Source of the DNA: a virus
Taxonomy: Duplodnaviria > Caudoviricetes
IMG/VR virus record: IMGVR_UViG_3300033143_004027
Location: 1 to 59,081 of that record
Strand: one strand, 5' to 3'
DNA: 59,081 nucleotides
The position numbers were made by a program, and so were the translations under genes. Under the pieces are notes generated by a model that made no database searches, was not told the DNA's origin, and worked only from the letters and a program-made list of their open reading frames with translations. Positions within the stretch are counted from its first letter, which is position 1. Each line of letters starts with the position of its first letter. Shown piece by piece: positions 47,726 through 55,703 of the stretch.

Positions 47726-50074
47726 CTAAAGACGGACGGGTTCCACAAGCCGGATACGGGCCTTCTTGCGTACGGGTTCTGTAAGTGCAGCATATGCCCC
47801 GCTGAGTGCGTCAACCTGGTCATCGTGCATCCCGTGTGGAAAATCGTCAACCTCGTCTAAGAATGCTTGATTCCACTCGCCGCGCAAGAGTTTGAGGTTG
47901 CCTGCCTCGGCGGCGATGGCGGCACCCTCTGCCCGCATAACCTTATCACCAGTCACGCGGTCACCCTTGAAGTTGTAACCTATCAGTAAGCGGCTATAGG
48001 CATCAATCGTATCTACCCCGCTGCTGCCTGGTTCCTGTTCCATACGCTGGCGAACATCCTTACCGTCGGCTCGCACTTGTGCTAAGATGTTCTCGGCATT
48101 TACACCAGGCGTCCCCCGAAACCGCCGAACGTGCTTCACGAAGAACATTCTACCCTGCTGCCCAAGCAACAATCCGACCGTCCAGTCACCCTTCTCTGTC
48201 GCCCCTCTATCCCAGTAACGAACATACCTTATGCCTTCGGTTGGCACCTTGTCAACAATCTCAAACCATTCGCGCCGGAAGAGTCCCCCCTCGCGGACGG
48301 TGGGGTTCTGCTGGTAGAGTGCCGCCCACCAGTAGCCGCCTATGGTATCCTTGATTTCCAATAGTCTCTCAAGCGGAAACCGCTCTGGCCAGAGGGCCTC
48401 ACCCACTGCGCGGCCCAACTCGTCTTCTTCTTCGGCTATGGCGGGAAAGTTAATAACCTCAAAGTGCTCATCTGTCTGGTCAATAATGCGCCCAGGCAGG
48501 TCGTCTTTATTCCAGCGCGTTGTGATTATGACGACAGCACCGCCTGGCTCTAACCGGCTATATGCTGTCGAACGATACCAGTCCCATTGCTTCTCACGAA
48601 TGGTAAGTGAGTTGGCTTCCTCGGCGTTCTTGGTGGGGTCGTCAATAAGTAGCACATTCGCGCCACGCCCCGTAACCGCACCACCAACGCCCGCCGTATA
48701 CATACCCCCATCATACCCGTCAAGCTGCCACTCACCCCGCGCAGATACATCGCCGCGAACCGTGACATCGGACAAGCCCCGCTCATAAGCATCCCGCAAT
48801 GAGTCACGAACCCTCATCCCCCAACTTGCAGCAAAGTTGGCCTCGTAGCTGGCCAATATTATGCGCTTCTCTGGAAAGGTGCTCAGATACCAAACGGGAA
48901 ACCAATGGCTGCACATCTCGCTGTTGCAGGTTGGCGCCATACCCTTGCCCGCAAGAAACTGGTGAGACGATGCGGCCACTTCAATACATACCGTATCCGC
49001 GCGTCCCGCCTCTTCAATTGTCAAATAATGATTTGGGCTTCTGCGGGGCTCAATACAGCGGGCTGCCTTGCGCGGCAAGCTGGCGGCATTGGGCATATAA
49101 AACAAGACCCGATATTTAGGCCCGCAGTCAGTACCATAAAGTGTTGCGCGCCCCTTTATCAAAGAAGCCTTATAGCCAAGACTGACAACAAGTTCGCGCA
49201 CACCATTGGCCAAGGCTATTTCTGTACTACAAAACTCTATCTGCCCGCCCGGGGATACATATCCATCAGTATCAATAAGACCCTGCAACAACGATAATCG
49301 CTGGCCTGGGCTTGCCCGCAGGTAACAGGCTGGTACATGCTTATTACCCAGCAGGTTGGCACGACGCAATAAAACCTGCAACCCCAAAACGCCAAAGGTA
49401 TCGGCAGTCGCCCTGTCGCTGGTCTTAAATGCTTCTGCAATACGTTGCCGAATATGCGCGCCGTCTTCGCCGATAGCAGTGATGCTGGCCTGTGTGGAAC
49501 TTCCATCCCCCAGCCAAACCCCAAGTGTATACGGGTCAATGGGAAGTTCGCGGACTGGCAGGTCTAATCCGTCGTGCTTGTCTACCATAACCCTGCGAGG
49601 TGATGTGCGCCCCGCAAGCTTTTCGGTAGTCCAGCGCGTCCGGCGGTTGGGATACTTTCTGTCGGCGCGTACCATCCAATCGTGTTCTGCGTCGGCTATC
49701 AATTCCTCACCACTATCAAGCTTGACACGGAACACAGGACGGTCTTTCCAAACAGGAGATTTGCCTGTTACAACAGTCGGCTTACCCCGCTCGTCAAATA
49801 CAAAGTCACCGACCTCAATATCCCCAATGCAAGACCAGCCATCGGGCGTCGGTATCGGCGTATCAAGAGCCAGGGCCTTTCCGTGCCTTGGTGGCATTGT
49901 CACAAGCAGCCGAGGGCACTTACCGTATGCTACATCTATCAGCTTTTGATTTAACAGCTTGAGGTGTGGCGGGCGTTGCCAGCGGCCATTAGTCAGCGTG
50001 ATTGCCAGCATCGCCGGCGTGGCTCTCGACAAGTCTGTCCTCAAGTTGTTCAACAAGTTCTCTGGTAGGCTCAT
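47726..50074 (-). CDS. terL: Terminase large subunit containing an intein
   Basis: PPRHGK|S Walker A, VTGRGANVLLIDDP.K Walker B, YQQ.P, HDDQVDALSGA. Confidence 0.95.
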   Translation of the reverse strand: MSLPENLLNNLRTDLSRATPAMLAITLTNGRWQRPPHLKLLNQKLIDVAYGKCPRLLVTMPPRHGKALALDTPIPTPDGWSCIGDIEVGDFVFDERGKPTVVTGKSPVWKDRPVFRVKLDSGEELIADAEHDWMVRADRKYPNRRTRWTTEKLAGRTSPRRVMVDKHDGLDLPVRELPIDPYTLGVWLGDGSSTQASITAIGEDGAHIRQRIAEAFKTSDRATADTFGVLGLQVLLRRANLLGNKHVPACYLRASPGQRLSLLQGLIDTDGYVSPGGQIEFCSTEIALANGVRELVVSLGYKASLIKGRATLYGTDCGPKYRVLFYMPNAASLPRKAARCIEPRRSPNHYLTIEEAGRADTVCIEVAASSHQFLAGKGMAPTCNSEMCSHWFPVWYLSTFPEKRIILASYEANFAASWGMRVRDSLRDAYERGLSDVTVRGDVSARGEWQLDGYDGGMYTAGVGGAVTGRGANVLLIDDPTKNAEEANSLTIREKQWDWYRSTAYSRLEPGGAVVIITTRWNKDDLPGRIIDQTDEHFEVINFPAIAEEEDELGRAVGEALWPERFPLERLLEIKDTIGGYWWAALYQQNPTVREGGLFRREWFEIVDKVPTEGIRYVRYWDRGATEKGDWTVGLLLGQQGRMFFVKHVRRFRGTPGVNAENILAQVRADGKDVRQRMEQEPGSSGVDTIDAYSRLLIGYNFKGDRVTGDKVMRAEGAAIAAEAGNLKLLRGEWNQAFLDEVDDFPHGMHDDQVDALSGAYAALTEPVRKKARIRLVEPVRL
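48923..49876 (-). mobile_element. Class-3-type intein with LAGLIDADG endonuclease (318 aa) in the TerL P-loop
   Basis: Starts ALALDTPIPTPDGW; ADAEHDW; LGVWLGDG; LLQGLIDTDG; TVCIEV; ends PTCN|S. Confidence 0.9.
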
Positions 50075-50420
50075 CGGTGAGGTCTATTCCGCCGCTGTGC
50101 TTGACGTTGACTGTCTGCTCAACCACCTTGTCCACGCGGTTCAATATCTCTTTGCAGGCAGCTATGCGGGCAGATTCAGTATTAGCACCCCTGAGACTCG
50201 CTGCATCCAAAAGTCCCTGCCAGGCGGCGGGGAATGCTTCAGCCTTAATCTCCTCAACCACGTCAAGTGCCACCTTGCGCCAGCGTTCGGTCTTGCGGGC
50301 GCGGAACAAAGTCATGCGGTTGGTCTTTAATTCGGCGGCTATAGAATCCCAGTACTTGTTGTCTATAATGCGCAGGCGAACCGCCGCGGCAATTTGTTCA
50401 TCGGTTAATCTGGTATCCAT
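49989..50420 (-). CDS. terS: Terminase small subunit
   Basis: N-terminal HTH, ARIAA.KEIL.R; immediately upstream of TerL. Confidence 0.7.
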   Translation of the reverse strand: MDTRLTDEQIAAAVRLRIIDNKYWDSIAAELKTNRMTLFRARKTERWRKVALDVVEEIKAEAFPAAWQGLLDAASLRGANTESARIAACKEILNRVDKVVEQTVNVKHSGGIDLTDEPTRELVEQLEDRLVESHAGDAGNHAD

Positions 50421-50667
50421 AATGTAACACTGTGCAACACAGCCCCACCAAGCCCCCCTGCGCGAAAGGAAGGGCCTTCTGGGGCGATTGTAGGCGGGTT
50501 GTATCTTGCCCTTGGGGAGTTAATGACAAGATACTCACCCCCAGCTAGTCAGCCATACCCCAAGAAGCTCCTGCTGGTAGGCTTTACCCAAAGGTAAGGT
50601 AGGGGCAGCACCATCACGCACTGCCCCCTGCAGACGATAGAACCTGCTGTGCCGACACAATAGCCAA

Positions 50668-50748
50668 TGGTGGAGGCGGAGGGTATCGAACCCTCATCCA
50701 GAGGAGGGCACTTCGGCCCCCGCCACTGTCGAAACCTTTCTCGCCCCC
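50668..50748 (-). ncRNA. Miniature tmRNA-like RNA (tRNA-like domain only, no tag ORF)
   Basis: GGGGGCG-AGAAAGGTTTCGA-CAGTGGCGGGGGCCGAAGTGCCCTCCTCTG-GAT-GAGGG-TTCGATA-CCCTC-CGCCTCC-A-CCA: G3.U70 acceptor stem, tmRNA-type D-loop, T-arm, encoded CCA. Confidence 0.85.
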
Positions 50749-50749
50749 G

Positions 50750-51208
50750 TCAGAACTCAGTTCTTGCGTGAACCTTCATCTCATCAATTACGCCCTTCTT
50801 AAACCAATCAAACTGGACAAAGCCATCACCAAACTCTTTATGAATGTAGGTATGGAGTACGCTATTGCAGGGGGTCTGGAATGCTTGGGCCTTAGCGCTA
50901 CCTGGTGTAAATAATGAGAAGGCTCGCATCTCGTTGGTCACGTTCTCCCCAGTTAAATACTCGACGCCCCACCAGTCGGCCCGCAGTGAGAGGTTCAAGT
51001 GATTGGAGGCCTCCCCGTTGAGCTTGAATTGCCTTGCACCCAGCATTAGTTTGACACCGCCCAGGTCTTTCGTCAGGCGTTGCGTCATATCTGATAAGTC
51101 GGCAAGCGAGTGTAACCTTACATCTAATTGCCAGCCCTTGGCCTGTGTAGCAGTGCAGACACTTAGCAATAATACTATACAGATTGGCACGACAACCCAG
51201 AACTTCAT
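50750..51208 (-). CDS. Secreted beta-rich protein, OMP-like (terminal Phe)
   Basis: Signal peptide ending TQA; amphipathic strands; C-terminus MKVHARTEF. Confidence 0.5.
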   Translation of the reverse strand: MKFWVVVPICIVLLLSVCTATQAKGWQLDVRLHSLADLSDMTQRLTKDLGGVKLMLGARQFKLNGEASNHLNLSLRADWWGVEYLTGENVTNEMRAFSLFTPGSAKAQAFQTPCNSVLHTYIHKEFGDGFVQFDWFKKGVIDEMKVHARTEF

Positions 51209-51313
51209 TCTAACTCATCTCTTACGGAGCGCGCGCTCCTGGTAGCCTCAACGGTCGAGTTCGGCAGCTATTGTGCATTGCCTACTTAGCCCATAGGGGT
51301 CAGCGCGAAGAGG

Positions 51314-51613
51314 CTAAATTGTTATTACATTGTCGGGCAGGTCACTTGTCAGCCCATAGTTATCGCAGTGGTATAGGAAGTCCTTCTTGATTGCTTTAAC
51401 GGCGGCCCGCACCTGGTTGCGTCCGCAGGCGATTGCATATCGGCGGAGGTCTTGCGGCGGAATGTGCTCGCCCTTCAGTAGGCCTTGCCACGCGCCGACC
51501 CTTGCTTCTTGCAGCATATCGTCATACTCAATGCGCGAGTTGTCGCCGCTGGCTTCGCGGGCAATGTGCTGGAGCGTAGTGTCTATGTCGGCTAATAACT
51601 GCTCCTTGTTCAT
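51314..51613 (-). CDS. Stand-alone sigma70 region-2-like protein
   Basis: YDDMLQEARVGAWQGL...LRRYAIACGRNQVRAAVK. Confidence 0.65.
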   Translation of the reverse strand: MNKEQLLADIDTTLQHIAREASGDNSRIEYDDMLQEARVGAWQGLLKGEHIPPQDLRRYAIACGRNQVRAAVKAIKKDFLYHCDNYGLTSDLPDNVITI

Positions 51614-51651
51614 AGTCTTCCAACACCTTCCAAGTGTTGTGCGGGGTGATA

Positions 51652-52035
51652 TTATAACTTGCAGCCCAGAAACTTCTTTAGCTTGTCCGTCTTGCGCTCT
51701 ATCGTCTGATTGATATTCGGTTGGCTACAGCCCAGTTTGCCTGCTATCTCCTCCTGCGTCTTCCCCTCCAGGTAGTACATATCAAGCAGCCGCCGGCCCT
51801 TTCTTGACAATGATGCCCAAGCCCGCTGAAAGTCGGCCCGTGTGGTCATAATGTTTATGTCGGCAGGATAGTTGCGTGCTATACTGGTAGCGCCAAGGTG
51901 CGGCGGCCATTCGGTACTTGACCTTCCCCACAATGCCAGCTCGTTAAGTAGCCAGCGGTTTCGCAGGCAAAGCTCAACTAATTCTGGCGTCCACTCATCA
52001 TCGCTGAAACTGGGCCGCTGCCATTCTTCTCTCAC
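51652..52035 (-). CDS. Sigma70 region-4-like HTH protein
   Basis: LSRKGRRLLDMYYLEGKTQEEIAGKLGCSQPNI; AGGAGG RBS before GTG. Confidence 0.75.
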   Translation of the reverse strand: MREEWQRPSFSDDEWTPELVELCLRNRWLLNELALWGRSSTEWPPHLGATSIARNYPADINIMTTRADFQRAWASLSRKGRRLLDMYYLEGKTQEEIAGKLGCSQPNINQTIERKTDKLKKFLGCKL

Positions 52036-52060
52036 TGTTGCACCTCCTAAGGCGCTTACA

Positions 52061-52106
52061 CAAAACAAAAGCCGGCCACAAGGCGCTCCTGCGCCTGCAA
52101 CCGGCT
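52061..52106 (-). terminator. Probable intrinsic terminator after the methyltransferases
   Basis: AGCCGG...CCGGCT stem followed by TTTGTTTTG. Confidence 0.55.
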
Positions 52107-52138
52107 ACCTCTCTGGGCTTGCCGTGCTTATTCGGTTG

Positions 52139-53551
52139 TTAGTCTATCAGCTTGTGCTGCTTCTGGCGCGTGGCCTTCTCTAATCGCTTACACTGCATCT
52201 CGCAGTATTCTGCTGAAAGCTCAATTCCAATATAATTGCGGTCTTCTTCGATGCAGACGATGCCAGTAGTGCCCGCTCCAGCGAAGGGGTCAAGGACAGT
52301 GCCAGTCTCTGTTTCTGCCTCCTCACAAGTGCAAGCCGGTTGCCAGCCAATGGTGTGATAAGCCCACTCAAACTGTTCTCCTGTCCGCGAAAAGCCCCCG
52401 CCAACATTATAATACTTGTCCCTGTTCTCAACAGCATCGTGGACTTTCCCCTTAGCCATCTTGTGAGAACGGACATTCGTCTTCTCTTTCTCCACAATCC
52501 GCGCCCACGGCTTCCCGCACTCCACGCAGACCTTCGGCGGGCAGCCAGCGCGGATGGGCTTCCTAATCAAGTCTGGTGGGTACACTGCGAAGTGCGCTTC
52601 GGGGAACGGTGCAGTCGGTATAATCCAGCAGTCGCCAGGGTTCTTGCCGAGGGGATGGAAGGCGTCACCCTCTCCTGGTTCTGGAGCCTGTCGCGCTCCC
52701 GATAGCCGTGGATTATCGCTTGTCTTTCGTCGAGCAGGCCCTCCAACAGGATGCCGTGACATCCGTTTGTCTTGTCTGTCTTTGCTCTTATTGCCAGGCG
52801 GTCTATCTAAAGCAGTATGCGCCTCCCTCACCGCGTCCAGATCAAACCAGTATCGCGCCGATTTGGTGAAGAAGAATATGTGCTCCCACGAACACGAGAA
52901 GCGGTCTTTGACTGAGGACGGCATCGCATTAGGCTTGTGCCAGCAGATGTCGTTGCGGAGCCACCAGCCCCGCTCCTGCATCCCGATGGCGAACCGTGCA
53001 GGCATCATCATCAGGTTCTTCGGCTTGAGCCACTGACCGCCTTCGGGGGCGTTCCAGGCTGGTCGCTTCACTCCTTTAGCGTCTTTGGGCTGATTTACGG
53101 GGGCTCCACCAAAGTAAGTATCCCCCATATTAACCCAACACGTCCCCGTCGGCTTCAACACGCACTTAACCTCGTCAAAGATTTTCCACAGATGCTCAAG
53201 GTAAAGGGAGGGGTGCGGCTCCAAGCCGAGCTGACCATACCAGGCCCCGCACTTCTGGCAAGTGGCGTGCTTATACTCCTTCGGCTCTGTATGGCTCTGT
53301 TCAATAACAGAGTGAGGCCCTTGCTTGACAGCAGCATCTGACTGCTTGACCTCGGTAGTTACCCAATCGTGGTCGCAGTCATCATCCCCGCCGAAGATAG
53401 TAGCAGTCCCTTCGCCATAATCTCGCAAGCCCCAGTACGGCGGCGAAGTCATCACACAGTCAATGCTGTCAGCAGACATATCGGCCAGCACCGACAGCGC
53501 GTCACCCTGCCGAACCTCCCAGCTAAACCTGTCGGATATGAACTTGTTCAC
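52139..53551 (-). CDS. Amino (N4-C/N6-A) DNA methyltransferase, beta class
   Basis: TSPPYW, WHKPNAMPSSVKDR, HFAVYP, VLDPFAGAGTT. Confidence 0.92.
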   Translation of the reverse strand: MNKFISDRFSWEVRQGDALSVLADMSADSIDCVMTSPPYWGLRDYGEGTATIFGGDDDCDHDWVTTEVKQSDAAVKQGPHSVIEQSHTEPKEYKHATCQKCGAWYGQLGLEPHPSLYLEHLWKIFDEVKCVLKPTGTCWVNMGDTYFGGAPVNQPKDAKGVKRPAWNAPEGGQWLKPKNLMMMPARFAIGMQERGWWLRNDICWHKPNAMPSSVKDRFSCSWEHIFFFTKSARYWFDLDAVREAHTALDRPPGNKSKDRQDKRMSRHPVGGPARRKTSDNPRLSGARQAPEPGEGDAFHPLGKNPGDCWIIPTAPFPEAHFAVYPPDLIRKPIRAGCPPKVCVECGKPWARIVEKEKTNVRSHKMAKGKVHDAVENRDKYYNVGGGFSRTGEQFEWAYHTIGWQPACTCEEAETETGTVLDPFAGAGTTGIVCIEEDRNYIGIELSAEYCEMQCKRLEKATRQKQHKLID

Positions 53552-53742
53552 TCTATCAGCTTCTTCTCTTGTCGTTTTCTGCTCGGATACTTAAAGCCGC
53601 CAATCTCGGTGATTATACCATCCCGCTGCTTAATGGTCAAGTCCCCGTAGCCGTGCTCGCACCAACGGGCGATATGCTTTATCTTGTCGCCGGACTGTCG
53701 GCTGAGCCAGTCTGTGACTCGCTGAAGGTTGTCGGCCATCAC
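53548..53742 (-). CDS. Small hypothetical protein
   Basis: Coupled between the two MTases. Confidence 0.5.
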   Translation of the reverse strand: MMADNLQRVTDWLSRQSGDKIKHIARWCEHGYGDLTIKQRDGIITEIGGFKYPSRKRQEKKLIE

Positions 53743-55703
53743 AACTCCAATCTCTGCTGTTCGTCTTTAGCTAACATCTGTTCGCTTTTCGCGAACGCCG
53801 TTCTCGCCTCGGCAATCTCTACATAATGAGCATCCTGGTCTATGCCGATATATTGCCAGCCACCGTGAATAGCTGCCACCAGGCTGCTACCGCTGCCGAC
53901 GAATGGGTCGAGCATCAGTCCACCAGGAGGGCAGCCCAGCGCCAACAGCCAACCAAAGAGGGCAACGGGCTTACAGGTAGGATGAGTGTTCTGCTGTGCT
54001 TCTACGGGCCCCATCGGTTTTCCTGAGCCCCCAGTCCAATCTGATTGTGCCAGGACAAGTGGCCGACCACCTTGAGCGGGGAATTCTTGCAGCCCCGCGT
54101 TCTTCTCTTTTTTGCTTGGCTTCGTCACGCATATCAGCCCTGCCTTAGCCTGCGCCACCCAATCCTCGTCAAAGCCATTCGCCTCTGCCCAACGGTCAAG
54201 GTCGTAATAGCGATTGTCCGCGCCCATAGCACCGCCGCCGCTGATTAGGTTCGCGGGGAAGCGACCTTCAGGTTTCCAGTTCATATTAGCATCACCAGCC
54301 TTTGCACCGCCAATAGCTATATCGGGTGGTGTTACTTGCCGAGTTACTTGCCCAAAGTCTATATTCTCTTCCCCAAACGGCATCCGTCCCGCATCTATGT
54401 TATAGCCACCGACGCCCCACTTTTTCACATTCTCGCGAATAGGCTTCTCCGACATCGGCTTACGAGCACAAATCACGAACTCGTATGCTGGCTTTAGAGC
54501 GCAAGATTTATAGCCTGCCCAAGTTTTGGCATCGTCAGTGGAAGGGGCGGTGATAGTATTCTGGCCCGAAACCCCAAAGACTCCCGTCTCGGTTGTATTT
54601 GTGCATTCCCATCTCTTGCCGCGCCGCCCATCAGTCACATCTGGCAATTCATATTCCCCCACCTTCACCCTCACGCCAGGCGGCAGGGAAAGGTCTGGCA
54701 CAGGTAGCCGTCGTTCGGGAGCAACTTGTTCTTCGGTAATCCCCATTTGTGCAATAGTTTCATCGTCTGCGCGCCTTAATAATTTAATATTTGTCTGCTG
54801 AAGCATATAGTGATAAGCATTAGACGAGTGCGGCTTCCACGCCTCCAGCTTCTCCTGCTCAGACAGCGGCTCCCAGAAGCGCGAGACGAGGGCGGAGAGG
54901 AGGTTGGTGCCTTCGGTGGAACCTGTTCTGCTGGCTAACGGCCCCCCCTCCCATCCGAAGTCAGCAGTTCGCCCATCACCATACTGCCCATTCACCGCCG
55001 CGCTCGTGGCCTTGCGAACGTGTGCCAGCGTCAACTCGTCCATATAGCCCTCAACAAAGGCCCAGGTGATGCGCTTGCACTCAGGACAGTCTATCTTAAG
55101 TTTGGCGAACTCCTTGTGCTTGTGCTCCCATGGACACTTAATCTTTGTGTACTTATCGGCAACCCATTCGCGGAAGGCAGCCTTGTCGAAGTCTTTGCCG
55201 ATGTCAAGGGCCTTCGGGAAGCCAGAATTATAGCACCATAGGATGGGTTGCAAACTGACGTCAAATCCTGCCATCTCAAGTGCGGCACACTGACGCCAGA
55301 GACAATCTGAACGCGCAGGTGCCATCACAAAGGCAAGCCCGCCAGGTTTCAGAATGCGAAGGCACTCTCGCCAAATAGGAACGAAGAAATCTACAATACC
55401 TCCCGCTGACTGCCGAGGCAACTTCTTGAAACCCTTTTCCTTCTCGTATGCCCCCTGTGGACTGACTATCTCATTCAGCTTCTCAAAGGCGCCATCTCCC
55501 TGAGTTTCCACCTTCATCCCAGGGGACATCCAACCCACTGTCTGTGATTGGGTGGGAGGCTTAGCATTGAATGAGTCCCAGTCTTTTGACATGAAGCCTA
55601 TGCCATAAGGCGGGTCGGTAGCAATACAGTCAATACTCTCGTCGGCTATCAACTTGAGCTTCTCTGCACTATCGCCACAGATTATCTGGTTGGGTTCGGT
55701 CAT
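53739..55703 (-). CDS. Amino DNA methyltransferase (DPPY) with large insertions
   Basis: TDPPYG, SGFPK, LKPAYE, GRFPAN, HPTCKP, LDPFVGSGS. Confidence 0.92.
   Translation of the reverse strand: MTEPNQIICGDSAEKLKLIADESIDCIATDPPYGIGFMSKDWDSFNAKPPTQSQTVGWMSPGMKVETQGDGAFEKLNEIVSPQGAYEKEKGFKKLPRQSAGGIVDFFVPIWRECLRILKPGGLAFVMAPARSDCLWRQCAALEMAGFDVSLQPILWCYNSGFPKALDIGKDFDKAAFREWVADKYTKIKCPWEHKHKEFAKLKIDCPECKRITWAFVEGYMDELTLAHVRKATSAAVNGQYGDGRTADFGWEGGPLASRTGSTEGTNLLSALVSRFWEPLSEQEKLEAWKPHSSNAYHYMLQQTNIKLLRRADDETIAQMGITEEQVAPERRLPVPDLSLPPGVRVKVGEYELPDVTDGRRGKRWECTNTTETGVFGVSGQNTITAPSTDDAKTWAGYKSCALKPAYEFVICARKPMSEKPIRENVKKWGVGGYNIDAGRMPFGEENIDFGQVTRQVTPPDIAIGGAKAGDANMNWKPEGRFPANLISGGGAMGADNRYYDLDRWAEANGFDEDWVAQAKAGLICVTKPSKKEKNAGLQEFPAQGGRPLVLAQSDWTGGSGKPMGPVEAQQNTHPTCKPVALFGWLLALGCPPGGLMLDPFVGSGSSLVAAIHGGWQYIGIDQDAHYVEIAEARTAFAKSEQMLAKDEQQRLEL

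What the first reader, a model, noticed from the sequence alone, without database searches (positions are those of the whole stretch)
50668..50748. Phage-encoded 81-nt mini-tmRNA: intact tRNA-like domain with the entire mRNA/tag domain removed
Seen: a 7-bp acceptor stem with G3.U70, an A discriminator and encoded CCA. It has the stemless tmRNA D-loop ending GGTTTCGAC, a 3-nt GAT linker and a perfect T-arm (GAGGG/TTCGATA/CCCTC). Between these, helix P2 is closed by a ~30-nt hairpin instead of the ~250-nt pseudoknot and tag region. No tag-like ORF is evident in the flanks, and the gene order is not permuted. Known: these are the AlaRS, EF-Tu and SmpB recognition elements of tmRNA, and tag-less tmRNAs are known mainly from jakobid and oomycete mitochondria. 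Inference: the stems are all intact, so this is unlikely to be a decayed remnant. It could be alanylated and bind host SmpB. It might then act as a decoy that blocks trans-translation, or accept stalled peptides without tagging them for proteolysis, possibly countering host mRNA/tRNA-cleaving defences.
Basis: partly seen in the sequence, partly recalled or inferred. Interest (0 to 1): 0.92.

Follow-up and report, generated by a model that had tools for sequence, protein, structure and literature searches.

The report
Phage mini-tmRNA lacking the tag domain
This phage carries an 81-base RNA gene that keeps only the alanine-accepting, tRNA-like end of the bacterial ribosome-rescue RNA (tmRNA), and the same stripped-down gene turns up in many other phages, so it probably interferes with or replaces the host's rescue-and-tagging system.

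Summary
Rfam's tmRNA model hits 50748..50668 (-) at 60.8 bits (cut-off 47), with all 303 internal model positions deleted.

It is neither an assembly artefact nor a decayed remnant. Of 120 hits, 115 show the same 63-93 nt architecture, and all 115 have G3.U70 and A73. Stems covary strongly. In 17 of 17 carrier virus records the short form is the only hit over the tmRNA cut-off, and none encodes SmpB. In 19 of 115 loci it lies within 500 nt of tRNA genes.

The kind is already in print. Mycobacteriophage DS6A has a "TLD only" tmRNA, proposed to inhibit tmRNA by titrating SmpB (PMC4131195, PMC11915505). The DS6A element shares this family's closing hairpin. This window's element is therefore a new member of a known kind.

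The breadth of the family appears unreported. Unannotated copies sit in cultured Streptomyces and Stenotrophomonas phages.

The likeliest mechanism is inferred, not tested. Host AlaRS charges it, host SmpB and EF-Tu bind it, and it competes with host tmRNA at stalled ribosomes without supplying a tag.

The parts
50668..50748 (-). Whole mini-tmRNA gene (81 nt, TLD-only tmRNA)
   Evidence: Rfam RF00023 at 60.8 bits, E 2.4e-21, model 1-374 with 303 internal positions deleted. Same hit in evalue mode and in the genome search.
50742..50748 (-). Acceptor stem 5' strand GGGGGCG (RNA 1-7), with G3 of the G3.U70 pair
   Evidence: Pairs 7 of 7 with RNA 71-77. In the family, positions 1-3 are invariant and positions 4-7 covary.
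50731..50741 (-). Unpaired D-loop analogue AGAAAGGUUUC (RNA 8-18), no D stem
   Evidence: Aligned to the conserved tmRNA 'GGaUUC' positions in the Rfam alignment.
50697..50730 (-). Helix P2 closed as a hairpin (RNA 19-52). G.A/A.G base, about 9 Watson-Crick pairs, two 1x1 mismatches, GCCGAAGUGC cap
   Evidence: Rfam structure line and MFE fold. The GCCGAAGUGC cap recurs in other members. P2 covaries in the family: 461 of 505 cells are canonical, against 35-43% in slid registers.
50696..50696 (-). Single-nucleotide linker U53 between P2 and the T-arm
   Evidence: Rfam structure line.
50679..50695 (-). T-arm GAGGG / UUCGAUA / CCCUC (RNA 54-70)
   Evidence: The outer two T-stem pairs are canonical in 172 of 172 cells, with 4-5 pair types, in the family.
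50668..50678 (-). Acceptor 3' strand CGCCUCC (RNA 71-77), discriminator A (78), encoded CCA (79-81)
   Evidence: A at the discriminator in 115 of 115 family hits. CCA encoded in 48 of 115.
50750..51208 (-). Upstream 152-aa ORF of unknown function. Its TGA stop lies one base before the RNA's 5' end. Context only, not part of the RNA
   Evidence: ORF list. No Pfam or PHROG family. Hydrophobic signal-peptide-like N-terminus. No relatives found.
50421..50667 (-). 247-nt non-coding spacer between the RNA's CCA end and terS. Strongly structured, no tag-like ORF. Context only
   Evidence: MFE -114 kcal/mol, z -4.09, 0 of 200 shuffles as stable. Three-frame translation shows no tag-like ORF. No Rfam family beyond the sub-threshold RF04321 overlap.

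Best explanation
The element is a phage gene for a TLD-only tmRNA (a 'mini-tmRNA'). It keeps the acceptor stem, D-loop analogue, base of helix P2 and T-arm of tmRNA. A short hairpin replaces the pseudoknots, resume codon and tag ORF.

Shown here:
- It matches the tmRNA model.
- It belongs to a large family, found mostly in viral contigs, whose stems covary.
- The family's alanine identity elements never vary.
- Family members often sit inside phage tRNA arrays.
- Carrier phages encode no SmpB and no full-length tmRNA.

Inferred mechanism:
1. The RNA is cut out of the phage transcript by the host tRNA-processing enzymes. Here the 5' end lies one base after the upstream stop codon.
2. Host AlaRS charges it with alanine through G3.U70 and A73.
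3. Host SmpB binds the D-loop/P2-base elbow, and EF-Tu binds the charged acceptor/T-arm.
4. The complex enters the empty A site of ribosomes stalled on broken mRNAs, in competition with host tmRNA.
5. It can take the nascent chain but offers no resume codon or tag. Stalled products therefore escape SsrA tagging, and host trans-translation is diverted or blocked.

Whether the net effect is inhibition or tag-free rescue is left open.
For: Identity. RF00023 scores 60.8 bits against a cut-off of 47, spanning model 1-374.

Family.
- Of 120 hits (119 loci plus the window), 115 have at least 6 of 7 acceptor pairs, 114 of them 7 of 7. All 115 have G3.U70 and all 115 have discriminator A. There are 78 unique sequences of 63-93 nt.
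- Rfam confirmed the short form at the predicted coordinates in 9 of 9, 14 of 14 and 4 of 4 loci tested.

Selection on the fold, in 86 unique sequences.
- Acceptor positions 4-7 are canonical in 343 of 344 cells, with 4-5 pair types each.
- The outer T-stem pairs are canonical in 172 of 172 cells.
- P2 positions 4-9 are canonical in 461 of 505 cells (91%), against 35-43% in slid registers.

Selection on the fold, in 13 sequences including the window.
- 11 of 20 pairs show compensatory changes.
- 98.5% of cells pair, against 75.7% in shuffles (0 of 500 reach the observed value) and 46-59% when slid.

Charging matters. G1-C72, G2-C71, G3.U70 and A73 never vary, while the neighbouring pairs turn over. 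A single U-to-C change would strengthen the stem, yet it is never seen.

Not an artefact, and no hidden partner.
- In 17 of 17 carrier virus records (9 at least 90% complete, 4 with terminal repeats), exactly one hit exceeds the cut-off. It is 66-89 nt in every case, and no full-length tmRNA is present.
- SmpB is found in 0 of 17 records and not in the window.

tRNA-like handling. In 19 of 115 loci a tRNA gene lies within 500 nt. In the arrays I inspected the tRNAs are on the same strand. In cultured Streptomyces phages the element fills an unannotated gap in a tRNA array.

Kinship to the window.
- L170 has the same first 21 nt and the same acceptor stem, but compensated P2 and T stems.
- L156 is a distant relative of this phage (TerL 40% and radical-SAM protein 47% identity). 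It also carries a mini-tmRNA, with different but paired stems.

Literature.
- A TLD-only RNA accepts peptidyl transfer in vitro (Shimizu and Ueda 2006, as described in PMC3895274, passage read).
- A DS6A-like TLD-only RNA inhibits tmRNA in E. coli (Mao et al. 2009, as cited in PMC4131195 and PMC11915505, passages read). I could not read Mao et al. itself.
Against: - There is no expression, charging or SmpB-binding evidence for this element or for any member found here. No sequencing run could be listed.
- The host of this phage is unknown, so the match to a host SmpB or AlaRS cannot be checked.
[quoted passage not shown] That result fits a passive SmpB sponge as well as my charged-competitor model.
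- The window's P2 has two mismatches in its first six variable pairs, where the family average is 91% paired.
- No sigma-70-type promoter or intrinsic terminator consensus lies nearby.
- The D-loop and T-loop motifs were fixed by my search pattern. Their 'conservation' in the family is therefore not independent evidence.
- After peptidyl transfer a TLD-only RNA gives the ribosome no way to terminate, and carriers encode no release factor or peptidyl-tRNA hydrolase (0 of 18 each). How the complex resolves is unexplained.
Confidence: 0.6

Rival explanations
1. Passive SmpB sponge. The RNA acts only by binding and titrating host SmpB off the ribosome. Aminoacylation is irrelevant, and trans-translation is shut down.
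For: [quoted passage not shown] Carriers encode no SmpB of their own (0 of 17 records, and not in the window).
Against: G3.U70, A73, G1-C72 and G2-C71 are invariant in 115 of 115 hits, while acceptor pairs 4-7 turn over with 4-5 pair types. A pure SmpB ligand would not need the AlaRS identity set. SmpB binds the elbow, not the acceptor end (established structural knowledge, recalled).
Confidence: 0.17
2. A tRNA-like element used for something other than trans-translation. One option is an RNase P/RNase Z 'punctuation' site that cuts the polycistronic transcript just after the upstream ORF. Another is a decoy for a host nuclease or defence sensor that recognises tmRNA or tRNA shapes.
For: The upstream ORF's stop codon ends one base before the RNA's 5' end. 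Members sit among tRNAs, or 106-205 nt downstream of Pistol self-cleaving ribozymes in L034/L087, L064 and L117. Defence proteins with SmpB-like domains exist (PMC11090510, passages).
Against: A processing site would not need invariant alanine identity elements, or the tmRNA-specific stemless D-loop with a G.A/A.G P2 base (86 of 86 and 78 of 86). No recurrent protein neighbour links it to any system: the best neighbour cluster occurs in 6 of 78 loci.
Confidence: 0.1
3. An integration-site relic. The element would be the phage attP core, or a leftover of a host ssrA picked up by imprecise excision, with no function as an RNA.
For: Many phages integrate into ssrA and carry its 3' end (PMC10865867 and PMC9004378, passages). 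In carrier G013 a tyrosine integrase lies about 1 kb from the element. In one Phycisphaerales-labelled assembly the mini and the host tmRNA share the acceptor stem and 3' tail.
Against: An attP needs only the 3' part, but here the 5' strand is present and covaries with it. No Phage_integrase was found in the window, and only 2 of 17 carriers have one. Serine integrases were not searched. DS6A integrates at tRNA-Lys, not at tmRNA (PMC10865867 table passage). In three of four assemblies the mini differs from the host's own TLD.
Confidence: 0.04
4. Assembly artefact. A full-length phage ssrA lost its middle through mis-assembly of the contig.
For: The window is a metagenomic contig. [quoted passage not shown]
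Against: The same architecture occurs in 115 hits from many assemblies. It occurs in 17 of 17 whole records, including 4 with terminal repeats. It also occurs in isolate genomes: DS6A, three Streptomyces phages and a Stenotrophomonas phage. The closing hairpin is a conserved motif, not a random junction.
Confidence: 0.02

Closest known systems
TLD-only tmRNA of Mycobacterium phage DS6A (Hudson, Lau and Williams 2014, PMC4131195; Nawrocki, Petrov and Williams 2025, PMC11915505)
   Same: Phage-encoded, standard (not permuted) order, about 80 nt (83 nt at JN698994 28478-28560), with a complete TLD and no tag ORF. P2 is closed by a short hairpin. The DS6A cap (AAACCGCACGCGG) is the commonest cap motif in the family I collected. 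It is unannotated in GenBank.
   Different: DS6A has a variant D-loop and T-loop (GGUGGUCGAC; GAGUUCGAUUCUC) and scores below the Rfam cut-off (43.2 bits). The window scores 60.8 bits. The window's cap is the GCCGAAGUGC variant, and its P2 is longer and mismatched. DS6A is temperate, with an integrase and attachment at tRNA-Lys. No integrase was found in this window.
Canonical one-piece tmRNA (Rfam RF00023), including full-length phage copies such as Cellulophaga phage Calle_1
   Same: Acceptor stem with G3.U70 and A73, stemless D-loop ...UUCGAC, G.A/A.G base of P2a, and a 5-bp T-arm with a UUCGAnn loop.
   Different: The canonical form is about 350-390 nt, with four pseudoknots, a resume codon and a tag ORF. 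Examples are the Calle_1 hit of 362 nt at 86.6 bits and host copies of 351-395 nt. All of that is absent here.
CDS-less organellar tmRNAs (jakobid and oomycete mitochondria, Rfam RF02544; two roughly 65-bp Mallomonadaceae plastid genes)
   Same: tmRNA reduced to the tRNA-like domain with no tag reading frame. They are retained together with SmpB, which suggests a tag-free role (PMC11915505 passage).
   Different: Mitochondrial genes are usually permuted and organelle-encoded, with a dedicated imported SmpB. This one is in standard order, lies in a phage, and must use the host's SmpB.
Synthetic TLD fragments used in SmpB co-crystal and in-vitro trans-translation studies (Gutmann 2003 and Bessho 2007, recalled; Shimizu and Ueda 2006 via PMC3895274)
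   Same: The same design: acceptor stem, D-loop, T-arm and P2a capped by a small loop. Such RNAs accept peptidyl transfer in vitro (passage). That they bind SmpB is recalled.
   Different: Those are laboratory constructs. This is a natural gene under selection, with a family-specific internal loop and cap hairpin.
Phage-encoded tRNA genes and tRNA arrays
   Same: Similar size, a tRNA-type acceptor and T-arm, the same strand and spacing as tRNAs in arrays, and variable encoding of CCA.
   Different: No D stem, no anticodon arm and no anticodon. ARAGORN does not call it. The Rfam tmRNA model scores it above its cut-off.

Membership tests
tmRNA (Rfam RF00023), tRNA-like domain | Covariance-model score at or above the curated gathering score | tested here: met
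   60.8 bits against 47, E 2.4e-21, model 1-374.
tmRNA (Rfam RF00023), tRNA-like domain | 7-bp acceptor stem with G3.U70, discriminator A73 and a CCA end | tested here: met
   7 of 7 pairs, G3.U, A, and encoded CCA.
tmRNA (Rfam RF00023), tRNA-like domain | Stemless D-loop analogue ending UUCGAC, and tandem G.A/A.G pairs at the base of P2a | tested here: met
   GGUUUCGAC ... GGA aligned to the consensus. G.A in 86 of 86 and A.G in 78 of 86 family sequences.
tmRNA (Rfam RF00023), tRNA-like domain | T-arm of 5 bp with a 7-nt UUCGAnn loop | tested here: met
   GAGGG/UUCGAUA/CCCUC.
tmRNA, full functional molecule | mRNA-like domain: resume codon and tag ORF ending in a stop codon | tested here: not met
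   303 model positions are deleted and only 9 nt remain. No tag-like ORF in the downstream spacer.
tmRNA, full functional molecule | Pseudoknots PK1-PK4 | tested here: not met
   Absent. P2 is closed by a 4-nt loop.
tmRNA, full functional molecule | Alanylation by AlaRS and binding of SmpB and EF-Tu | not testable with these tools
   Inferred only, from invariant identity elements.
Two-piece (permuted) tmRNA (RF04321 and related) | Acceptor 3' piece encoded upstream of the coding piece; score over the cut-off | tested here: not met
   The order is standard. RF04321 reaches 27.9 bits against 47, and only over the T-arm region.
Phage TLD-only (CDS-less, standard-order) tmRNA, type DS6A | Complete TLD, P2 capped by a short hairpin, 60-95 nt in total, no tag ORF, encoded in a virus genome with no full-length tmRNA | tested here: met
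   81 nt. The window is a virus record. This is the only tmRNA hit in the window. The same architecture is seen in DS6A and in 17 of 17 carrier records.
Phage TLD-only (CDS-less, standard-order) tmRNA, type DS6A | Homologues keep the stems through compensatory changes | tested here: met
   11 of 20 pairs are compensatory, and 98.5% of cells pair against 75.7% in shuffles (0 of 500).
Phage TLD-only (CDS-less, standard-order) tmRNA, type DS6A | Inhibits host tmRNA function when expressed | not testable with these tools
   Reported for a DS6A-like RNA in E. coli (Mao 2009, as cited in PMC4131195 and PMC11915505). That paper was not held.
tRNA (RF00005) | D stem, anticodon arm and anticodon | tested here: not met
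   ARAGORN finds no gene. No tRNA hit appears at this site in the Rfam scans, where only the best overlapping clan member is listed.

The most novel reading that the evidence does not exclude
TLD-only tmRNAs are a widespread phage gene family that has gone largely unrecognised. I found at least 86 unique sequences with one narrow pattern. The 2025 curated tmRNA database lists 9 'standard, no CDS' entries in all. ARAGORN-based annotation misses them, and they are unannotated even in cultured Streptomyces and Stenotrophomonas phages.

On this reading the family works in the charged state on the ribosome. Ala-TLD, SmpB and EF-Tu take over stalled ribosomes and add a single alanine instead of the SsrA degron. 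Phage proteins made from damaged mRNAs then escape tagging. With no single-stranded mRNA-like region, the RNA would also offer no target to mRNA-cleaving toxins. This would be a distinct phage strategy for controlling host translation quality control, not merely an SmpB sponge.
Probability: 0.35. Interest if true: 0.8.

Novelty: new member of a known kind. Interest (0 to 1): 0.6.

Why it matters
Trans-translation is the main ribosome-rescue and protein-tagging pathway of bacteria, and it is a drug target. A natural, compact RNA that many unrelated phages carry to engage this pathway would be a ready-made probe or inhibitor of SmpB-tmRNA.

It would also show that phages routinely manipulate ribosome rescue. 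The only published example is a one-line remark about phage DS6A. The family found here includes members in cultured phages of harmless hosts. That makes an old question directly testable: what does a tag-less tmRNA do on a stalled ribosome?

There is a practical point too. ARAGORN-based phage annotation misses these genes, and curators may discard them as internal deletions.

Tried and rejected
Earlier findings and read evidence
- Sequencing runs: none was listed for window:50300-51300, and no RNA holder was listed. Read laying could therefore not be used, and neither mis-assembly nor expression could be tested by reads.

Close kin of this phage
- Megablast of 48000-53000 against phages gave no match.
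- The 152-aa ORF has no relatives in viral contigs and no usable Atlas hit.
- The portal protein gave one 4-kb viral contig that does not reach the element. It gave nothing in metagenome contigs, and only about 23% identity to actinophage portals.
- The host therefore remains unknown. The 'Tepidimicrobium' label of the kin contig L156 is doubtful. That contig has 52% GC, against 38% at that assembly's own tmRNA locus.

Other searches that gave nothing
- blastn of the 81 nt against phages hit only the 3' 34 nt of full-length Cellulophaga phage tmRNAs.
- The 66-nt class had no match in phages.
- The promoter/terminator scan found none.
- Search for a linked protein: no recurrent neighbour by blastp clustering, with the best cluster in 6 of 78 loci. 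No SmpB, no RF-1/ArfB-type domain (0 of 18) and no peptidyl-tRNA hydrolase (0 of 18).
- ARAGORN's long 'tmRNA' calls in L034, L087, L063 and L089 were rejected, because Rfam places only the short form there.

Rows dropped from the family counts
- L076, cut by a contig end.
- L094 and L112, L100 and L107, which have 3-5 of 7 acceptor pairs.
- 29 of 39 genome-contig hits with fewer than 7 pairs, plus L130, which is doubtful (G1.U pair, no GGA).
- 26 of 35 hits of the second viral pattern.

Literature
- Searches found no paper describing a family of phage TLD-only tmRNAs beyond DS6A.
- Mao et al. 2009 is not held and is known to me only through citing passages.
- Supplements are closed. Supplementary Table S2 of PMC11915505 (breakdown of the 9 'standard, no CDS' and 79 phage sequences) and Table S1 of PMC9004378 may list further phage cases that I could not see.
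- No CM of my own was built, and complex prediction, structure prediction and fold search were not used.
Full report
WHAT IS THERE

On the minus strand, 50748..50668 encodes an 81-nt RNA. Rfam's tmRNA model RF00023 matches it end to end (model 1-374) at 60.8 bits, against a gathering score of 47. The E-value is 2.4e-21 for the whole 59-kb window. In that alignment 303 internal consensus positions are replaced by 9 nt. It is the window's only Rfam hit over a gathering score.

The alignment and the MFE fold agree on the structure:
- A 7-bp acceptor stem GGGGGCG/CGCCUCC with G3.U70, discriminator A and an encoded CCA.
- A stemless D-loop analogue ending GGUUUCGAC.
- The tmRNA-specific G.A/A.G base of helix P2.
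- A T-arm GAGGG/UUCGAUA/CCCUC.

P2 (RNA 19-52) is closed by a short hairpin. It carries two 1x1 mismatches.

Folding energy alone is unremarkable (z -1.46). ARAGORN reports no gene. The permuted-tmRNA model reaches only 27.9 bits, over the T-arm region. The 247-nt spacer downstream holds no tag-like ORF. The only correction is that the linker before the T-arm is one base (U53) in the Rfam structure.

SETTING

The window is a linear virus record estimated to be 66% complete. All sizeable genes lie on the minus strand.

In the direction of transcription, the genes upstream of the element are:
- a DnaB-type helicase,
- a radical-SAM protein,
- two DNA methyltransferases,
- two small sigma-like proteins,
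- a 152-aa ORF with a signal-peptide-like N-terminus, whose stop codon ends one base before the RNA.

Downstream come the 247-nt spacer, then terS, an intein-bearing terL and the portal gene.

The window has no SmpB, no Phage_integrase and no tRNA.

IT IS ONE OF MANY

I examined 120 hits, counting the window:
- 115 have at least 6 of 7 acceptor pairs, and 114 of them have 7 of 7.
- All 115 have G3.U70, and all 115 have discriminator A.
- CCA is encoded in 48 of 115.
- There are 78 unique sequences, 63-93 nt long.
- The five others are one hit cut by a contig end and four that are not TLD-like.

The same pattern in 596 Gb of prokaryotic assemblies gave only 39 hits. Nine are clear members, on contigs whose record titles name Phycisphaerales, Lentisphaerae, Acidimicrobiales, Victivallaceae, Streptomyces, Anaerolineae, an 'archaeon' MAG, Tepidimicrobium and Actinomyces. 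One is doubtful and 29 are chance matches in coding DNA.

Two further scans added members. A subclass pattern gave 9 of 9 members in metagenome contigs. A variant D-loop pattern gave 9 members among 35 viral hits.

Rfam confirmed the short form at the predicted coordinates in every locus I submitted: 9 of 9, 14 of 14 and 4 of 4.

THE FOLD IS UNDER SELECTION

I analysed 86 unique sequences, anchored on the fixed motifs:
- Acceptor positions 4-7 are canonical in 343 of 344 cells, with 4-5 pair types each.
- The two variable T-stem pairs are canonical in 172 of 172 cells.
- P2 positions 4-9 are canonical in 461 of 505 cells (91%), using all six pair types. Slid registers give 35-43%.

RNAalifold on 13 sequences, including the window and its nearest relative L170, recovers the acceptor, P2 and T helices. 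11 of 20 pairs show compensatory changes. On that alignment 98.5% of cells pair, against 75.7% in shuffles (0 of 500 reach the observed value) and 46-59% in slid controls.

One caveat applies. The D-loop and T-loop letters were fixed by my patterns, so their constancy is not evidence.

G1-C72, G2-C71, G3.U70 and A73 were not fixed by the pattern, and they never vary. A single U-to-C change would convert the wobble into a stronger pair, and the adjacent pairs have turned over many times. I read this invariance as selection for recognition by AlaRS. This is an inference from the established alanine identity rule.

NOT AN ARTEFACT, A RELIC OR HALF OF A SPLIT GENE

I searched 17 whole carrier records, 9 of them at least 90% complete and 4 with terminal repeats.
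- Each has exactly one hit over the tmRNA cut-off, always 66-89 nt. None has a full-length tmRNA.
- None encodes SmpB.
- None encodes an RF-1/ArfB-type domain or a peptidyl-tRNA hydrolase (0 of 18 each, counting the window).
- Only 2 of 17 encode a tyrosine integrase.

In four of five prokaryotic assemblies that hold a mini, a normal 351-395-nt tmRNA lies on another contig. In three of those four the mini is not a copy of that host's TLD.

Kin of this window's phage also carry the element.
- L156 shares TerL at 40% and the radical-SAM protein at 47% identity. It has a mini-tmRNA with different but paired stems, followed by three tRNAs.
- L170 has the same first 21 nt and the same acceptor stem as the window, but compensated P2 and T stems.

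tRNA-LIKE GENOMIC BEHAVIOUR

In 19 of 115 loci a tRNA gene lies within 500 nt. In the arrays I inspected the tRNAs are on the same strand, often with several to more than twenty tRNAs.

No protein neighbour recurs: the best blastp cluster occurs in 6 of 78 loci. The element therefore behaves as a free-standing RNA gene that moves among unrelated phages.

The P2 cap is a family-specific conserved feature. It consists of P2a, a GAAA-type internal loop and a 3-bp stem with a 4-nt loop. It comes in two main flavours, (G/A)CCGCAYGCGG and GCCGAAGUGC. The window has the second.

WHAT IS KNOWN

- Hudson, Lau and Williams (2014, PMC4131195, passages read) list 'Mycobacterium phage DS6A (TLD only)'. They note that a similar molecule, chargeable or not, strongly inhibits tmRNA, perhaps by titrating SmpB, citing Mao et al. 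2009.
- Nawrocki, Petrov and Williams (2025, PMC11915505, passages read) repeat this. They add two roughly 65-bp plastid genes. Their counts are 9 'standard, no CDS' and 79 bacteriophage sequences among 97,179. Only RefSeq viruses were searched.
- I located the DS6A element at JN698994 28478-28560 (43.2 bits). It is unannotated and carries the family's CCGCACGCGG cap.
- DS6A integrates at tRNA-Lys, not at tmRNA (PMC10865867, table passage).
- Peptidyl transfer to a TLD-only RNA occurs in vitro (Shimizu and Ueda 2006, as described in PMC3895274).
- Large phage surveys annotate tmRNA with ARAGORN (PMC7162821 and PMC9004378, passages). ARAGORN made no correct short call on any member here.
- Six literature searches found no description of a phage TLD-only family. 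Supplements were closed.

CULTURED CARRIERS

blastn with two family members found unannotated copies in several cultured phages:
- Streptomyces phages Shaeky, LuckySocke, GiJojo, pSt2308, BRock, Alone3 and Riptide,
- Stenotrophomonas virus Jojan60.

In Shaeky, LuckySocke and BRock the element fills an unannotated gap inside a tRNA array. In Jojan60 it follows four tRNAs and is overlapped by a 'hypothetical protein' CDS. Rfam scores these four at 57-64.5 bits, with lengths of 81-83 nt.

MECHANISM

Shown:
- Identity as a tmRNA TLD without an mRNA domain.
- Selection on the fold and on the alanine identity set.
- tRNA-like genomic placement.
- Dependence on host factors.

Inferred:
1. Host tRNA-processing enzymes cut the RNA out of the transcript.
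2. Host AlaRS charges it with alanine.
3. Host SmpB and EF-Tu bind it.
4. It enters stalled ribosomes in competition with host tmRNA.
5. It can accept the nascent chain but provides no resume codon. SsrA tagging is therefore diverted or blocked.

The invariant identity elements favour this charged-competitor model over a passive SmpB sponge. The only published experiment, known to me second-hand, reports inhibition regardless of chargeability, so the sponge remains a serious rival.

Two things are not known: whether the outcome for the phage is inhibition of rescue or tag-free rescue, and how the peptidyl-TLD complex is resolved.

VERDICT

The size, diversity and conservation pattern of the family, and its presence unannotated in cultured phages, appear not to be in print. 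They make the function directly testable.

Scores: interest 0.6. Confidence that this is a functional TLD-only tmRNA gene is about 0.9. Confidence in the stated mechanism is about 0.6.

Noticed in passing
window 47726-50074 (-): The large terminase (782 aa) carries an inserted LAGLIDADG-type element that looks like an intein. Pfam LAGLIDADG_3 matches at aa 259-308. The intein-less TerL of kin contig L156 aligns to aa 5-76 and 384-766, which leaves roughly aa 77-383 as the insert.
   Followed up: partly
window 50421-50667 (-): The 247-nt non-coding spacer between the mini-tmRNA and terS is unusually structured (MFE -114 kcal/mol, z -4.09, 0 of 200 shuffles as stable). It matches no Rfam family. 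It could be a terminator plus a packaging or regulatory region.
   Followed up: partly
window 51314-51613 (-) and 51652-52068 (-): Two separate small sigma-like ORFs lie here. The upstream one (138 aa) carries sigma-70 region 4. The downstream one (99 aa) has a weak region 2 match below the Pfam cut-off. The order is the reverse of a normal sigma factor, so this is not a simple frameshift split.
   Followed up: no
window 52139-53551 (-) and 53739-55703 (-): Two adjacent large N6_N4-type DNA methyltransferases (470 and 654 aa). In each, the Pfam domain match is split into two stretches by long inserts.
   Followed up: no
L034 6093-6154 (-), L087 11838-11899 (-), L064 706-767 (+), L117 13481-13542 (+): A Pistol self-cleaving ribozyme (Rfam RF02679, 50.8-51.9 bits) lies 106-205 nt upstream of the mini-tmRNA, on the same strand, in these four viral loci. 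This may be a recurrent pairing of a ribozyme with the tRNA-like gene.
   Followed up: partly
L034 5905-6228, L087 11650-11973, L063 10045-10574, L089 636-1124: ARAGORN calls long (324-530 nt) 'tmRNA' genes that share only the 3' end with the mini-tmRNA. Rfam supports only the 80-83-nt form. Some ARAGORN phage tmRNA annotations may therefore be mis-extended short forms.
   Followed up: partly
L220 1501-1581, L222 1501-1582, L223 1492-1572, L221 1501-1583 (GenBank OR725497, MT701595, KX925554, ON045087): Cultured Streptomyces phages LuckySocke, Shaeky and BRock, and Stenotrophomonas virus Jojan60, carry mini-tmRNAs that GenBank leaves unannotated. In Jojan60 a 'hypothetical protein' CDS overlaps it.
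   Followed up: yes
L072 794-1003 (+): A HEARO RNA (RF02033, 170.6 bits) lies on the same viral locus as a mini-tmRNA, about 5 kb away.
   Followed up: no
L185-L216, about 20 loci: One near-identical sequence of about 85 nt recurs in many large viral contigs. It contains GGATTCGAC and a GGGGTTCGAATCCCC T-arm. It is not a TLD-only tmRNA (5 of 7 acceptor pairs in my register) and is probably a tRNA with a long variable arm.
   Followed up: no
L151 150-231 (+): A contig binned as an 'archaeon' MAG carries a mini-tmRNA (65.9 bits) and a tRNA. It is most likely a mis-binned viral contig. PMC11915505 also suspects misbinning for tmRNAs found in archaeal MAGs.
   Followed up: no
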